From the NCBI RefSeq assembly GCF_009914755.1, contig NC_060926.1: 64,000 nucleotides of DNA. The stretch is one strand, 5' to 3'. The notes under the pieces were generated by a model. The model was not told the origin of the DNA and did no database searches. It saw only the letters and a program-made list of their open reading frames with translations. Positions 50,119-57,420 of this stretch are shown piece after piece. The stretch is from the human T2T-CHM13v2.0 reference genome, Homo sapiens. Within the stretch, counting starts at the first letter, position 1; each line of letters opens with the position of its first letter. The translations under genes were made by a program, and so were the position numbers.

Positions 50119-51491
50119 CGCAAGGGAAGCCACCTAATCAATTATTACATAGACTAGTTAAGAATGACAAATTCTCCTCTCAGAGAACAATTGTTCTTTT
50201 ATATCTGGCTGTATACAAATATCTAAGAAAAAAATTCACAGCCACTTTAACTTTTATTTTATTTTGAGATAGGGTCTCACTTATGTTGCACAGGCTGGAA
50301 TGCAGTGGTGAGACTACGACTCACTGAGGCCTTGATCTCCCTGGCTCAATCCATCCTCTCACCTCGGCCTACCTAGTAGCTGGGATTACAGGTGTGTGCC
50401 ACCATACCTGGCTAATTTATTATTTATTTATTTATTTATTTTTGAGGCGGAGTCTCACTCTGTTGCCAGGCTGGAGTGCAGTGGTGCAGTCTCGGCTCAC
50501 TGCAACCTCCACCTCCTGGGTTCAAGCGATTCTCCTGCCTCAGCCTCCCAAGTAGCTGGGATTACAGGCACGCACCACCATGCCCAGCTAATTTTTGTAT
50601 TTTTAGTAGAGAGGGGTTTCGCCACATTGGCCAGGCTGGTCTTGAACTCCTGACCTCGTGATCCGCCCACCTCAGCCTCCCAGAGTGCTGGGATTACAGG
50701 TGTGAGCCACCATGCCCACATACCTGGCTAATTTATTAATTTCTTGTAGAGATAGGGTCTCGCCCTGTTGCCCAAGCTGGTCTTGAACTCCTGGCCTCAA
50801 GCGATTCTCCTGCTTCAGCCTCCCAAAGTGCTGGGATTACAGGGTATGAGCCACAACACCCAGCCTCATTTTAACTTTATTATGAAATAATTTTAAATAT
50901 ATTGTTCTTGCATTTTAATAACTATAGTAAGAATTACTGCTTTGGTAGCAATATTTTAAATGTTACACAGACTCCATCAAGACAGAAAAAAACCACTGAA
51001 AATTAAATCTGAGACGACCTACCTGCGTGGATCATAAGCATAAAGACAGAACTCATCAATGTATAGTATTCAAAGAGAAAATTTCTGGGCTAGGCATGGT
51101 GGCTCATGCCTGTAATCCCAGCACTTTGGGGGGCCAAGGTGGGAAGGTCACTTCAGGTCAGGAGTTCAAGATGGCCTGGCCAACATGGCGAAACCCCATC
51201 TCTACTAAAAATACAAAAATTAGCCAGTGTGGTGGTGTGCGCCTGTAGTCCCAGCTACTCAGGAGGCAGAGGCTGCAGTGAGCCAAGACCACACCAATGC
51301 ACTCCAACCTGGGTGACAGAGCAAGACTCTGTCTCAGAAAAAAAAAAAAAAAAAAAAGGAAAAAGAAAAAATCTCTGACTAGGGTCAGGTAGAAAGCAAA
51401 AGTCAAACATCCACTGAGACTCCCCATCAATGAGGCCCATCCCGAAGAATCAGCCGGGAATTGCCAAGGCAGTTTTCAGAGGGATGGATTT

Positions 51492-54400
51492 TTAACAGAA
51501 CCTCTCCCCAAGTGCTGTAGAATGGCACACACAGCAGCTTGTCTCTAACTCACAGCCACTCATCGGGAACCCCCTACAGAAGGATTCTTTATCTTCCTCA
51601 TCCTGGTCCAACTCACTGTTCCTGTCTTCATTCTCCTGGTGGCTCTCACGGTCCTTGAGCTTGGCTCCCCTCCTGCTTGGTGATATTAACTTCTCAGCAA
51701 ACACAGGAGCCAGAGACTTTTCCTCCCCTTTCTTTCCCGGGACAGTGGTATTCTTCCTGCAATTCTTATGAGGGACAAGAACCTGGAGGAGAAACAGCAA
51801 CAATGAAAAGATGCCTCTTCATGAAGCTACCATCACACTGCACAGTCACTAAGTGCAAGATTCGGGTCGTGCATGTAAGTCAACAACTATTTCAACTCTC
51901 TAGGATGAATTTCTCCTAGAGAAATGTAGTAAAAAGCTTCCAGCACCAGAATCACCTGACATGCTTGTCTAAAGAAAAAAAACAAGGCCAGGCCCGGTGG
52001 CTCACGCCTATAATCCCAACACTTTGGGAGGTGGAGGTGGGTGGATCACCTGAGGTCGAGAGTTTGAGACCAGCCTGACCAACATAGAGAAACCCCGTCT
52101 CTACTAAAAATACAAAATTAGCTGGGCGTGGTGGCGCATGCCTGTAATCCTATCTACTCAGGAGGCTGAGGCAGGGGAATTGCTTGCACCCAGGAGGCGG
52201 AGGTTGTGGTGAGCCGAGATCATGCCATTGCACTCCAGCCTGGACAACAAGAGTGAAATTCTGTCTCAAGAAAGAAAATTAAAAAACAGAATGCTGGGCA
52301 TGGTGGCTCATGTCTGTAATCCCAACACTTTGGGAGGCCAAGGTGGGCAGATCACCTGAGGCCAGGAGTTCAAGACCAGCCTGGTCAACATGGTGAAACC
52401 CTGTCTCTACTAAAAAAAAAAATACAAAAACTGGCCGGGTATGGTGGTGGACACTGTAGTCCCAGCTACCTGGGCAGATGAGACATGAGAATTGCTTGAA
52501 CCCAGGAGGTGGAGGTTGCAGTGAGCTGAGATCGCACCACTGCACTCCAGCCTGGGTGACAGAGTGAGACTCTATCTCAAAAAAAAAAAAAAACAAAGAA
52601 AAATTCTCAGACTTCACTTAGCACTAACAAACCAGAATATCCACAGGGAAGCATCCAGATTTCTACAAGTAGGGACGCTACTGACCCAGGAGAATATACA
52701 TCAATTATTCATGTCATTAGAGCCCCAATTCTGACTCTGTGTGACGGGTCAGTGTCAAAATGCAGGTGCAAAACAGTTTATTCAGTGTACCAGAGGGAAA
52801 ACTAAAACTACCTTTAGGCTATGTATATAAGGTATATATGAAACATAAATGAATTTTGTGTTTAGACTTGGGTGCCATCCCCAAGATATCTCTTTATGTA
52901 TCTGCAAGTATGCCAAAATCCAAAAAATCTGAAGTCTAAAACATTTCCAGTCCCAAGCATTTCGAATAAGGGATACTCAACCGATACAGTACATGCTCTC
53001 TTATCTATGTCAACGTAACCAACTGGCTGGATTAAATGACTGTCTCAATTCCAAACAGGTCTTACTATAATAACTTGATGCTTATGAAATCCCAAGCATG
53101 AGTGGGCCACTCTGTGGTACTCCTACTAATGTGATGTCTCTATGCCTGTGAGCTGAACTGTATCTTTAATAAAAACCCGCTGTGTTGTTTGCTAACCTGT
53201 ATTTGCAGTTTCAACTGCAAAATTAACTAAACATCACATAAACCAATACCATCAACGCAAAAAGGGTGGGGTGCAGTGGCTCACACCTATAATCCCAACA
53301 CTTTGGGAGGCCGAGGCGGGCAGATCACATGAGGTGAGGAGTTCGAGACCAGATTGACCAACATGATGAAACCCCATCTCTACTAAAAATAAAAAATTAG
53401 CCGGGCGTGGTGGCACATGCCTGTAATCCCAGCTACTTGGGAGGGTGAGGCAAAAGAATTACCTGAACTCAGGAGCTGGAAGTTGCAGTGAGCCAAGACT
53501 GAGCCATTGCACTCAAGCCTGGGCAACAAAAGTGAGACTCCATCTCAAAAAATAAAATAAAATAAGTGCAAAAAGTTATTGAGTCTATGAAAACAAACTT
53601 CAGTGCTTTGGAGGTACTTGATAAAGCTTAAAAAACTGCAATCAAGTTAAGGGTGCATGAGCAACCATAAAAGAATGGGAAAAGCTGTAAAACTGTGGGA
53701 ATCTGTATTCAAACTGCTTTACTTACTAGGATGTTAGAGTTTTCCTTTGCTTTAAAGAAACAAACTTTAAATTGCAGAAGATGCATTATGTGTGTATTTT
53801 ATGCAGGGAAGATAAGCTACTCCAGCAGTGGACTCAAAGATAAGGCCTTGGTCCTGTATCAAAATATTGCCAAAAGAATACATAATGTCTTAAATTAAAA
53901 TCAAAAGGTATGGATGGATAATTTTCATGATTTCCCTACTTTTACTTTTTAAAAAATTGTATAAAGTGTATAACTGTTTTAATATACTTATGGCAAAATG
54001 GTTACTACAGTCAAGTAAATTAACAAGTCCATCATCCCTAATAAGTGTGTGTGACAAGGGCACCCAAAACCCACTTTTACATTTGATTAATTAAAACAAT
54101 TAGACTGAAGAGGGTTGAAGAAAGTTTCTATCACACAACCAGCTGCTCAAAATGGACAACAAATAAATGCTATCTGCCTCTCAGAACAAGCTGCTTAGGA
54201 GAAGACTGAGAAATGAATGGGGAAGGTATAGGGGGTTTGGATTCAGCAGACCTATGTATAACCCTGGCTGTCACTTACTAGTTCTGGAAACATGAGCAAG
54301 CTGGTTAATGGCTAAATCTGCTTTCTTGTCTAATTTTAGTATATGTGCTGCCGAAGCGAGCACACTTTCTTGTCTAAAAAATGGAGCTATATGATGCCTA

Positions 54401-56074: not shown

Positions 56075-56669
56075 CTCAAAATAGACAAGATTATTATTAG
56101 GCACATGACAAGGCCTTCACACATTCCAAGCCAGGCACGTTTTGTCTCTGGTATTTCCAACAGTAAACTGGCATTTGGAATAAACTTATGTTAGGCCTCA
56201 TCTTAACTTTTAATTTTCATTTGGTATCTTTTACTCACACCAGCGAACAGAAAAACAAATACAAAAGGTGATTTTTGATGTTGTAGGTGAGGTCTCCCAT
56301 ACCTCTTCTTTTGCCACAATCGATAAGTGGAAACTCCTTAAGAAAAAAAAAAAAAAAAAAAAAGACAAATTCCCAGGAATTCCTTCCTATTCCTCTCATT
56401 CTGATCCGTCACGTGTTTTCAAGTAACTGTTTAAAAAATATATATATAGTTCCACTACAGACTACTCAAATGGAAGCACATTGGGCCAAAATACAGGGGA
56501 CAAAGGGCCAAAAACAGTACCTGCAATTCAAGTACCTTTACTTCGCCAGTCAGATAATTCTGTGAACTGGGTCAGCGTCCATCACTACCCCCACCAGAAT
56601 TCAGAACACACATGAGTCTATAACCCTCGCTGCCCACAGCAGCCCTTGTCCCTAACAGGTTTTCCTTTA

Positions 56670-57420
56670 AGGCTGTCGCGGTGCGCCCCTGCAAGCCACC
56701 GCGCGTGACGGACGCGGGCACGACGCCTGGGGACAGCCCGAAGAAAACCGCAGGCGCCGACACGCTGGTGACGCCCTCTCAGCTATTGCCCCAGATCCAA
56801 GGCGCGCGGGGAAGACGGCCACGTAAAGATACGGCGCCCTGGTGACTCCGCCTCGCCCAATCAGAGCCCGCGCAACCCCTGAACCAATCCTGAGCCGCGA
56901 CCCTGGGAGGGGCGGGCGGTGCGGGAGCCTGGGGGCGTGAGTCTTGAGCCGGGGTGGAGGGGGGGCCGCACGTGCTGCGCCTGCGCGTGGAGCGGACATT
57001 TTGCTGCGGTCTAGCGCGGGAGGCGGGGTTTTGGGTTCGCTGGTCCAGGTGCGCGCGGTGTCCCAGGTCTTCGCGCCAGGTTGGCGCGGGAGAAGGCCGA
57101 GGTGCCCCAGAGTTCGAGGAGTTGGTGACGGTCACGCGGTGCGACGCTCCATGGCGGAGGGGCAGTCGGAAAGTGAATAGCACTCGTTAAAAGCGACCAG
57201 TCCGTAAGGGCGCGTGTGTCGGCGCCGTTACGGACCCCAGCGCTCGGGGTCGTTAAACCGTTTAAGTCGCGTCCCGCCCAGTGAGGGCTATGTTAGCGTC
57301 CTCGCCGTTTCCAGCCGTGAAGGAGGCACTGAGACGACAGCTGAGGGTCTCTCCGTTAAGGCTGTCGCTGCTGTAGGGGCCCTCGCCCGCTGCGTGTTTG
57401 TGCCACCCAGCGTACTGGGT
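56670..57420. promoter_or_regulatory. CpG island promoter of the NCL paralog/LINC00471, homologous to the NCL promoter
   Basis: acggcgccctggtgactccgc (56831) vs NCL acggcgccctcgtgactccgc (6972); CCAATC boxes and GC box in the same order. Confidence 0.85.

What the first reader, a model, noticed from the sequence alone, without database searches (positions are those of the whole stretch)
50860..56790. LINC00471/C2orf52 explained as the 5' stump of the NCL paralog, created by a 3-nt donor deletion
NCL exon 3 ends GAGGAAGATG|gtaaggagt. The paralog reads GAGGAAGAT---aaagaat (junction 51591/51590), so G|gt is deleted. Restoring it gives a 193-nt phase 0-1 exon like NCL's. Without the donor, translation runs into former intron 3 (KESFCRG...ERFC*, stop 51492), and the RNA can end at AATAAA 50876-50881. 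This is a base-level mechanism for a protein-gene-to-lncRNA conversion and for the origin of the 108-aa ORF.
Basis: partly seen in the sequence, partly recalled or inferred. Interest (0 to 1): 0.78.

Follow-up and report, generated by a model that had tools for sequence, protein, structure and literature searches.

The report
LINC00471: decayed nucleolin paralog, donor mutated
Human LINC00471 is the decaying remnant of an ancient duplicate of the nucleolin gene, and one of its splice sites was most likely lost in great apes by a single base change, not by the proposed 3-base deletion.

Summary
These are the NCL exon-3 end, GAGGAAGAT-AAAGAAT at 51599-51584, the 108-codon ORF, the stop at 51494-51492, AATAAA at 50881-50876, and the exon edges 51782 and 55966.

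LINC00471 is a tandem NCL paralog. Homologs of exons 2-9 lie collinear from 56.1 to 39.5 kb. Exons 5, 6, 8 and 9 keep NCL's exact length and their AG/GT, and have no stop (pairwise dN/dS 0.30).

Predicted "nucleolin-like" proteins from bats, camel, whales, horse, dugong, loris and monkeys form a separate clade with the human copy. The duplication therefore predates the placental radiation.

The proposed mechanism is not supported. Human and 5 of 5 ape models have AT where the donor GT should be, most simply a G>A at 51592. The missing GAT codon is an old exonic difference from NCL.

LINC00471 is also not just a stump. The main isoform uses an in-phase donor at 51617 and splices in frame into exon 5.

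The exon-7 Alu, a 5-nt deletion and the off-frame exon 4 are further lesions. No monkey DNA could be read, so the base change is inferred.

The parts
56521..56816 (-). LINC00471 exon 1 (RefSeq). It is collinear with NCL exon 1, and the promoter flank 56831-57092 aligns to NCL 6972-7227 at 64%.
   Evidence: Annotation given with the finding; blastn. The exon-1 alignment itself is poor.
55966..56071 (-). Homolog of NCL exon 2 (106 nt against 117). The donor is conserved. The acceptor is a GAGCAG tandem (56074 or 56071). It holds the ATG of the 108-codon ORF.
51593..51782 (-). Ancestral exon 3 of the paralog, 190 nt, phase 0 to 1. The acceptor is homologous to NCL's at 4456.
   Evidence: Acceptor alignment; junction positions in outgroup models.
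51611..51616 (-). Proximal donor AACA|GTGAGT (exon end 51617, exon 166 nt, phase 1). It is used by RefSeq NR_199860.1 and by the Cebus model.
51591..51592 (-). AT at the place of the ancestral donor GT (GAGGAAG|ATAAAG). Inferred G>A at 51592, shared by human, Pan, Gorilla and Pongo.
   Evidence: The monkey nucleotides are inferred from splice junctions in proteins, not read.
51492..51590 (-). Former intron 3, now read as the last 32 codons (KESF...ERFC) plus the TAA of the 108-codon ORF.
51548..51553 (-). Third donor GGCT|GTGAGT (exon end 51554, 229 nt, phase 1). It is used by the unnamed human-like protein P0011 to reach the exon-8 homolog.
50876..50881 (-). AATAAA poly(A) signal. The annotated isoform ends at 50865, just before an Alu.
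   Evidence: annotation.
49987..50111 (-). Exon-4 homolog, 125 nt, with AG at 50113-50112 and donor GAAG|GTCGGA. It is out of frame when joined to exon 3 and is in no RefSeq transcript.
49608..49694 (-). Exon-5 homolog, 87 nt as in NCL, intact, and used by RefSeq in the NCL frame.
48939..49080 (-). Exon-6 homolog, 142 nt as in NCL, with AG/GT intact and no stop. Not annotated in human.
46574..46996 (-). Exon-7 homolog, split by an antisense Alu (46681-46975) that is flanked by a 15-nt target duplication (46976-46990 and 46666-46680). The original acceptor AG is at 46997-46998. There is a 5-nt deletion relative to the monkey and loris proteins. The RefSeq exon 46574-46795 starts at an acceptor inside the Alu.
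45520..45643 (-). Exon-8 homolog, 124 nt as in NCL, intact. The last RefSeq exon begins here and reads through its GT.
39534..39691 (-). Exon-9 homolog, 158 nt as in NCL, intact, matching RRM_1 (E 3e-4). It lies 4.8 kb beyond the annotated end of LINC00471.
36968..37813 (-). 282-codon open frame, 68% identical over 263 aa to the C-terminal part of a seal model that starts with the nucleolin-like exons. FAM200/ZBED5/GTF2IRD2-like (a lead only).
   Evidence: no Pfam match here.

Best explanation
LINC00471 is the transcribed relic of an ancient tandem paralog of NCL. The duplicate covers at least the promoter through exon 9. It existed before the placental mammals diverged and evolved for a long time as a protein-coding gene.

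Its exon 3 originally ended GAGGAAG|GT, which is the donor homologous to NCL's exon-3 donor. The paralog has one Asp codon fewer than NCL there, and that difference is old.

In the great-ape lineage the GT became AT, most simply by a G>A transition at window 51592. Transcripts that do not use the upstream donor at 51617 now run on into former intron 3. Translation then adds 32 new codons up to the TAA at 51494-51492, which gives the 108-codon C2orf52 ORF. The RNA can end at the AATAAA at 50881-50876.

The principal isoform instead uses the in-phase donor AACA|GTGAGT at 51617. This donor lies in a primate-only NSELD motif and is also used in the Cebus model. From it the RNA splices in the NCL frame into the exon-5 homolog.

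The donor change is one of several lesions, not the single cause of the loss of coding. The others are an Alu inserted into exon 7, a 5-nt deletion in exon 7, an off-frame exon 4, and loss of the KKMSLSP start codon.

Shown: the homology, the exon structure, the ORFs and the lesions in human, the junction positions in outgroup proteins, and the clade. Inferred: the GT in monkeys, the direction and nature of the base change, and the order of the lesions.
For: Collinear homology:
- Exon 2 is 70% identical, exon 5 83%, exon 6 76%, exon 7 75%, exon 8 78%, and the promoter flank 64% (blastn).
- At protein level exon 6 is 66%, exon 8 73% and exon 9 61% identical, with no stops (tblastn).

Intact exons:
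- Exons 5, 6, 8 and 9 have NCL's exact lengths (87, 142, 124, 158 nt) and intact AG/GT.
- Over 166 codons dS is 0.64, dN is 0.19 and dN/dS is 0.30, with a bootstrap 95% range of 0.19-0.47.
- 112 random substitutions leave these exons free of stops in only 0.7% of 5000 trials.

Tree: the human translation groups with 7 'nucleolin-like' proteins (support 100/99), sister to mammalian NCL, with fish NCL outside.

Junctions:
- Six of 7 non-ape models with the ...EE motif splice after GAGGAAG into four different downstream exons, and 1 of 7 (Cebus) uses the 51617-type donor.
- The Hipposideros model continues EE|D-SENEA, matching NCL's EED|D-SEEEA. This ties the junction to NCL's own exon 3/4 boundary.
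- Five of 5 named ape models read through as EEDKESF.

Frame: the exon to 51593 is 190 nt and to 51617 is 166 nt, so both are phase 1 without any repair. The RefSeq splice gives ...[23 protein letters not shown]..., which aligns to NCL's EPVKEAPGKRKKEMAKQK.
Against: - No genomic DNA of any other primate could be read with these tools. The monkey GT is inferred from computational gene models, and one of the six proteins is of unnamed origin.
- Gibbon is not sampled, so the age of the change is bounded only by Pongo and the Old World monkeys.
- The gene models in monkeys are heterogeneous (skipped exons, Alu-derived exons), so the gene may already have been failing before the donor changed.
- A dN/dS of 0.30 against a highly constrained NCL implies only moderate constraint on the paralog side.
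Confidence: 0.8

Rival explanations
1. The paralog's exon 3 once ended GAGGAAGATG|gt exactly like NCL's (193 nt), and a 3-nt deletion of G|gt removed the donor.
For: The exact 12-mer GATGAGGAAGAT is shared only by the NCL exon-3 end and 51591-51602. After a 3-nt gap, AAAGAAT aligns to AAGGAGT. The restored exon would be phase 0-1.
Against: Zero of 7 non-ape models with the motif show the EED+G|xx reading that this predicts. Six of 7 read EE+G|xx, including a bat and a loris. The 190-nt exon is phase 0-1 without any repair. The 12-mer identity is what a G>A at the donor would itself create (GAAGGT to GAAGAT).
Confidence: 0.07
2. There was never a donor at 51593 in the primate lineage. The donor at 51617 is the real exon-3 donor, and the resemblance to NCL's exon end is low-complexity chance.
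For: The 51617 donor is a good GTGAGT, is in phase, and is used by RefSeq and the Cebus model. The local alignment with NCL is not significant. Acidic DNA gives many near matches.
Against: Models from five named species and one unnamed protein place a junction after GAGGAAG. In Hipposideros and Saguinus it leads into the exon-4 homolog, as in NCL. The NSELD motif that carries the 51617 GT appears only in the primate proteins seen.
Confidence: 0.04
3. The locus is still a protein-coding gene in human. The 108-codon ORF, or longer nucleolin-like ORFs (114 to about 220 codons), are translated and useful, so 'lncRNA' is a mislabel and the donor change created a new C-terminus under selection.
For: Conceptual splices 2-3(51617)-5-8-9 and 2-3(51593)-8-9 stay open for 190 and 169 codons. 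Exons 5, 6, 8 and 9 are intact. The ape ORFs keep KESF(C/F)RGF.
Against: RefSeq annotates only non-coding RNAs. Exon 6 and exon 9 are not in the human transcripts given. Exon 7 is broken by an Alu. Ape models diverge right after RGF, so the new C-terminal tail is not conserved beyond about 9 residues. No translation data were available here.
Confidence: 0.07

Closest known systems
NCL (nucleolin), the neighbouring parent or sister gene in the same window
   Same: Same strand, same exon order and same intron phases for exons 2-9. The N-terminal basic/acidic region and RRM1-RRM2 are recognisable, and exon 9 meets the Pfam RRM_1 cut-off.
   Different: Exon 3 is 190 nt instead of 478. No homologs of exons 10-14 were found. 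Only the window could be searched, and NCL's own exons 10-14 lie outside it. Evolution is much faster. In other mammals the 3' end is a transposase-like exon. The human copy is broken.
lncRNAs that are relics of ancestral protein-coding genes (Hezroni et al. 2017, PMC5577775; MBE 2023, PMC10195156)
   Same: An annotated human lncRNA whose exons descend from coding exons of a gene that is still predicted as coding in other mammals.
   Different: LINC00471, C2orf52 and NCL are not in the supplementary files held for these two papers. Both papers were seen only as a search listing and a supplement search, and I did not read their texts. Here the ancestor is a tandem paralog of a living gene, not a lost single-copy gene.
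Predicted 'nucleolin-like' genes of other placentals (for example Cebus imitator P0016, Hipposideros armiger P0036, Nycticebus coucang P0039)
   Same: 72-75% identical to each other over RRM1-2, against about 60% to true NCL. They form one clade with the human translation and have the same exon junctions.
   Different: Those are open reading frames in database gene models. The human copy lacks the distal exon-3 donor and has the exon-7 Alu and deletion.
Host-transposase fusion genes such as GTF2IRD2 (kind recalled from memory, not from a call)
   Same: In models from seal, a Myotis bat, whales, loris and dugong, the nucleolin-like exons are spliced to a FAM200/GTF2IRD2-like sequence. Its human counterpart is at 37019-37835.
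   Different: The family assignment rests on an Atlas feature score (0.92) and a database name, and the Pfam copy here gave no match. Whether the fusion is functional or read-through is untested.

Membership tests
Nucleolin gene family (paralog of NCL) | Collinear exon-by-exon homology with shared intron positions and phases | tested here: met
   Exons 2, 3 (acceptor), 4 (3' end), 5, 6, 7, 8 and 9 lie in order on the same strand. Exons 5, 6, 8 and 9 have identical lengths and AG/GT.
Nucleolin gene family (paralog of NCL) | RNA recognition motif | tested here: met
   The human exon-9 homolog frame 39508-39729 matches RRM_1 at 21.0 bits against a cut-off of 20.7. The orthologs P0036 and P0048 match clearly.
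Nucleolin gene family (paralog of NCL) | Four RRMs and a C-terminal GAR domain | tested here: inconclusive
   Only 150 of the 391 minus-strand open frames listed for 8000-44600 were scanned (those in 29162-44531), and none but exon 9 hit RRM_1. Half-RRM exons are hard to detect, and NCL exons 10-14 are outside the window. The ortholog models end after RRM2.
Nucleolin-like clade distinct from NCL | Groups with other mammals' nucleolin-like proteins rather than with NCL | tested here: met
   The paralog group of 8 rows is one side of a branch with support 100/99. The tree had 18 rows, and 6 fragmentary or odd rows were dropped beforehand.
lncRNA derived from a pseudogenised coding gene | Past purifying selection on the coding frame | tested here: met
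   dN/dS is 0.30 (range 0.19-0.47). Differences by codon position are 35/24/53. The exons stay stop-free in 0.7% of simulations.
lncRNA derived from a pseudogenised coding gene | Disabling lesions in the species where it is non-coding | tested here: met
   AT in place of the donor GT at 51592-51591, an Alu with a 15-nt target duplication inside exon 7, a 5-nt deletion in exon 7, and exon 4 off frame.
   Zero of 7 non-ape models with the motif show it, and 6 of 7 splice directly after GAGGAAG. This was tested on proteins only.
Host-transposase fusion gene | A transposase-derived domain spliced to host exons in several species | tested here: inconclusive
   Models from 6 species join the two parts, and the human counterpart is 68% identical over 263 aa. 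The family is only a lead (Atlas 0.92; no Pfam match).

The most novel reading that the evidence does not exclude
Placental mammals carry an uncharacterised second nucleolin gene. It consists of the NCL N-terminal region plus RRM1-2, spliced to a FAM200/GTF2IRD2-type transposase remnant. It was held under selection for about 100 million years and is now being dismantled in apes. Human LINC00471, two unannotated intact exons (48939-49080 and 39534-39691) and a 282-codon open transposase-like frame (36968-37813) are what remains, and parts of it may still be translated.
Probability: 0.4. Interest if true: 0.65.

Novelty: new member of a known kind. Interest (0 to 1): 0.45.

Why it matters
This gives a concrete origin for an anonymous human lncRNA (formerly C2orf52) that appears only in expression-signature papers. 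It shows that NCL, a heavily studied gene, has an old sister gene that is still predicted as coding in many mammals.

It is also a clean, dated example of how a coding gene becomes a lncRNA piece by piece. The steps are splice-site change, Alu insertion and frameshifts.

It also shows that a base-level mechanism inferred from two paralogs alone can be wrong, because here the mutation itself created the misleading identity.

In the searches I ran, nothing in print links LINC00471 to NCL.

Tried and rejected
1. Local alignment of NCL intron 3 and the exon-3 3' end against 51372-51680 scored 15-15.5, against a shuffle mean of about 11 (z 2.4-2.6). This cannot fix the register.

I then listed 391 minus-strand stop-to-stop frames of 30 aa or more in 8000-44600 and scanned the first 150 of them (29162-44531). 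Only the exon-9 homolog hit RRM_1. The other 241 frames (8000-29256) were not scanned, so homologs of exons 10-14 remain unsought there.

3. The Pfam copy gave no family for the 282-codon frame.

5. Literature:
- 10 papers hold LINC00471 and 5 hold C2orf52 (listings only).
- PMC11453068 has no mention of LINC00471 in its main text.
- PMC4488244 lists C2orf52 only as a gene beside SNPs (one passage).
- 'nucleolin-like' plus paralog returned 21 papers, all about plants, yeast or unrelated topics by title.
- nucleolin plus 'unitary pseudogene' returned 2 unrelated papers.
- 'host-transposase fusion' plus nucleolin, and GTF2IRD2 plus nucleolin-like, returned none.
- The supplements held for PMC5577775 and PMC10195156 have no match for LINC00471, C2orf52, nucleolin or NCL.

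6. I considered scoring the donors with a weight matrix. None is on hand, so only matches to the consensus are reported.

7. The Myotis yumanensis model P0024 and the Kogia model P0026 were not used for junction counts. P0024 looks like a chimera of NCL-like and paralog exons, and P0026 is NCL-like along its whole length.

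
Full report
**What was checked first.**
- The window's minus strand carries NCL (exons 1-9 within 82-6923) and, about 50 kb upstream in transcription terms, LINC00471.
- NCL exon 3 ends GATGAGGAAGATG|gtaaggagt at 3979.
- The LINC00471 strand reads GATGAGGAAGATAAAGAATCC at 51602-51582.
- Splicing the annotated short isoform (56521-56816, 55966-56071, 50865-51782) gives the 108-codon ORF. It starts in exon 2 and ends at the TAA at 51494-51492.
- Its last 32 codons come from 51590-51495.
- AATAAA sits at 50881-50876, 11 nt before the annotated end at 50865.

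**Is the locus an NCL paralog?** Yes.
- Ignoring Alu hits, blastn of 1-8000 against 44001-58000 gives collinear same-strand matches:

| NCL | LINC00471 region | identity |
|---|---|---|
| promoter flank 6972-7227 | 56831-57092 | 64% |
| exon 2 | 55956-56155 | 70% |
| exon 4, 3' end | 49985-50053 | 74% |
| exon 5 | 49603-49697 | 83% |
| exon 6 | 48935-49091 | 76% |
| exon 7 | 46566-46680 | 75% |
| exon 8 | 45510-45659 | 78% |

- The exon-3 acceptor region also aligns (score 20 against a shuffle maximum of 17).
- tblastn with the window's own NCL translation adds an exon-9 homolog at 39538-39690. It is 61% identical with no stop, and lies beyond the annotated end of LINC00471.
- That frame meets the Pfam RRM_1 cut-off.
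- Exons 5, 6, 8 and 9 have exactly NCL's lengths, intact AG and GT, and no stop.

**Was it once a working gene?**
- Over these 166 codons dS is 0.64, dN is 0.19 and dN/dS is 0.30, with a bootstrap range of 0.19-0.47. Only 1.6% of replicates reach 0.5, the floor expected if the paralog had always been neutral.
- Differences by codon position are 35/24/53.
- The same number of random substitutions leaves the frame free of stops in 0.7% of 5000 trials.
- A protein search with the Cebus 'nucleolin-like' model found proteins 72-75% identical to it, against about 60% for true NCL. They come from two Myotis species, Hipposideros, camel, a whale, loris and dugong. Weaker hits come from horse, seal and two other whales (39 hits in all; no rodent among them).
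- In a tree of 18 rows (6 fragmentary or odd rows left out), the human translation falls in the paralog group. Support is 100/99. The group is sister to mammalian NCL, and fish NCL is outside.
- The duplication is therefore older than the placental radiation, and the copy was under selection for much of its history.

**The donor.**
- The human-only evidence cannot place the 3-nt gap:
  - The alignment of the exon-3 end and intron 3 is not significant (z 2.4-2.6).
  - The shared 12-mer lies in acidic low-complexity DNA, with 7 one-mismatch relatives in the window.
- Outgroup proteins decide it. I searched with the read-through exon-3 translation (sequences; alignment).
- Five of 5 named ape models (Pan, Gorilla, three Pongo isoforms) read ...[10 protein letters not shown](C/F)RGF, like human.
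- Seven non-ape models have a recognisable ...EE motif. Six of them switch to a different exon directly after EE plus one base:
  - Cercocebus, EE|DQNAK, into exon 8
  - Macaca nemestrina, EE|ALLTF, into an Alu-like exon
  - Saguinus, EEG|GTNKAG..., into exon 4 and then exon 5
  - Nycticebus, EE|EPIKK, into exon 5
  - Hipposideros, EE|D-SENEA..., into exon 4
  - unnamed P0009, EEG|DLVM
- The seventh, Cebus, uses the upstream DRN| junction.
- NCL itself reads DEED|D-SEEEA, so the bat junction is the true counterpart of NCL's exon 3/4 boundary, with one Asp codon fewer.
- The ancestral paralog exon was therefore 51593-51782 (190 nt, phase 0-1 without any repair). Its donor dinucleotide corresponds to human 51592-51591, which is AT.
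- The simplest change is G>A at 51592. It occurred after the split from Old World monkeys and before that of Pongo.
- That change also creates the exact GAGGAAGAT identity with NCL that suggested a deletion.
- The monkey bases are inferred from junctions in computed gene models. No primate DNA could be fetched here.

**Not a stump.**
- RefSeq NR_199860.1 ends exon 3 at 51617 (AACA|GTGAGT, 166 nt, phase 1) and joins the exon-5 homolog.
- Its ORF continues ...[34 protein letters not shown], in register with NCL's EPVKEAPGKRKKEMAKQKAAPEAKKQKVE.
- It then uses an acceptor inside an Alu, followed by the exon-7 remainder and the exon-8 homolog.
- A third in-phase donor (GGCT|GTGAGT, exon end 51554) is used by the unnamed protein P0011.
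- The NSELD motif that holds the 51617 GT is seen only in the primate proteins.

**Other lesions in human.**
- *Exon 7, Alu.* An antisense Alu (46681-46975) with a 15-nt target duplication splits the exon 21 nt after its original acceptor. Macaque, tamarin, capuchin and loris proteins read straight through this point.
- *Exon 7, deletion.* It also has a 5-nt deletion relative to those proteins: human frame A ...YEIKETKGKGNK against frame B MKLKKPKGKETK.
- *Exon 4.* The homolog (50111-49987, 125 nt) is out of frame when joined to exon 3, with a stop at codon 85. Tamarin and bat read it in frame.
- *Exon 2.* The Met of KKMSLSP is Ile in human and apes.
- The order of these events is unknown. The donor change cannot be called the mechanism of the coding-to-lncRNA transition.
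- On the other hand, the conceptual splices 2-3-5-8-9 and 2-3-8-9 remain open for 190 and 169 codons.

**Beyond the finding.**
- In models from seal, Myotis lucifugus, whales, loris and dugong, the nucleolin-like exons continue into a sequence whose human counterpart is 37019-37835. It is 68% identical to the seal protein over 263 aa (E 6e-101).
- Human keeps a 282-codon open frame there (36968-37813).
- The Atlas places it with FAM200/ZBED5/GTF2IRD2-like proteins (score 0.92, 192 shared features). The Pfam copy here gives no match.
- This suggests the old paralog was a nucleolin-transposase fusion. I did not test that further.

**Literature.** None of the searches listed under Tried and rejected found a statement on the origin of LINC00471/C2orf52 or on a mammalian NCL paralog. 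Supplements not held as text could still list it.

**Verdict.**
- The donor is indeed lost, but the 3-nt deletion is not supported and 'stump' is an overstatement.
- This is a new, well-documented member of a known kind: a lncRNA that is a relic of a coding gene.

Noticed in passing
36968-37813 (-), homology 37019-37835: A 282-codon open frame, 68% identical over 263 aa to the C-terminal part of a seal protein whose N-terminal part is nucleolin-like. The Atlas lead is FAM200/ZBED5/GTF2IRD2-like. Nothing is annotated here in the table given. It is possibly the 3' exon of an old nucleolin-transposase fusion gene.
   Followed up: partly
48939-49080 (-) and 39534-39691 (-): Intact homologs of NCL exons 6 and 9, with exact length, AG/GT and no stop. 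Neither is in any RefSeq LINC00471 transcript listed, and the second lies 4.8 kb beyond the gene's annotated end.
   Followed up: yes
46574-46998 (-): An antisense Alu sits inside the exon-7 homolog, flanked by a 15-nt target-site duplication (TGGTTATGTGAATTT). The RefSeq exon 46574-46795 starts at the usual antisense-Alu acceptor (tttttttag|TAGAGACGGGG).
   Followed up: yes
56071-56077 (-): A tandem GAGCAG acceptor at exon 2. The AG homologous to NCL's is 3 nt upstream of the one RefSeq uses.
   Followed up: partly
46561-46574 (-): Primate proteins read ...ETKVCKQ|D, through the NCL-type exon-7 donor to a GT 13 nt downstream. Laurasiatherian proteins read ...ETKK|D. This fits a 4-nt loss at the old donor, compensated by a new donor. 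Inferred from proteins only.
   Followed up: partly
protein P0024 (Myotis yumanensis): This gene model joins NCL-like exons 2-4 to the paralog's exon 4 onward. It may be a read-through or assembly chimera, or an extra copy in bats.
   Followed up: no
15303-15479 (+): A GAA/GAG-rich simple stretch that translates to a long Glu run. It gave spurious tblastn matches to NCL's acidic exons.
   Followed up: no
51700-51720 (-), exon 3: Human and ape proteins read GKK-GEEK where monkeys read GKKVGEEK, or GKKGGEEK in Macaca nemestrina (P0013). This is a one-codon difference within exon 3.
   Followed up: no
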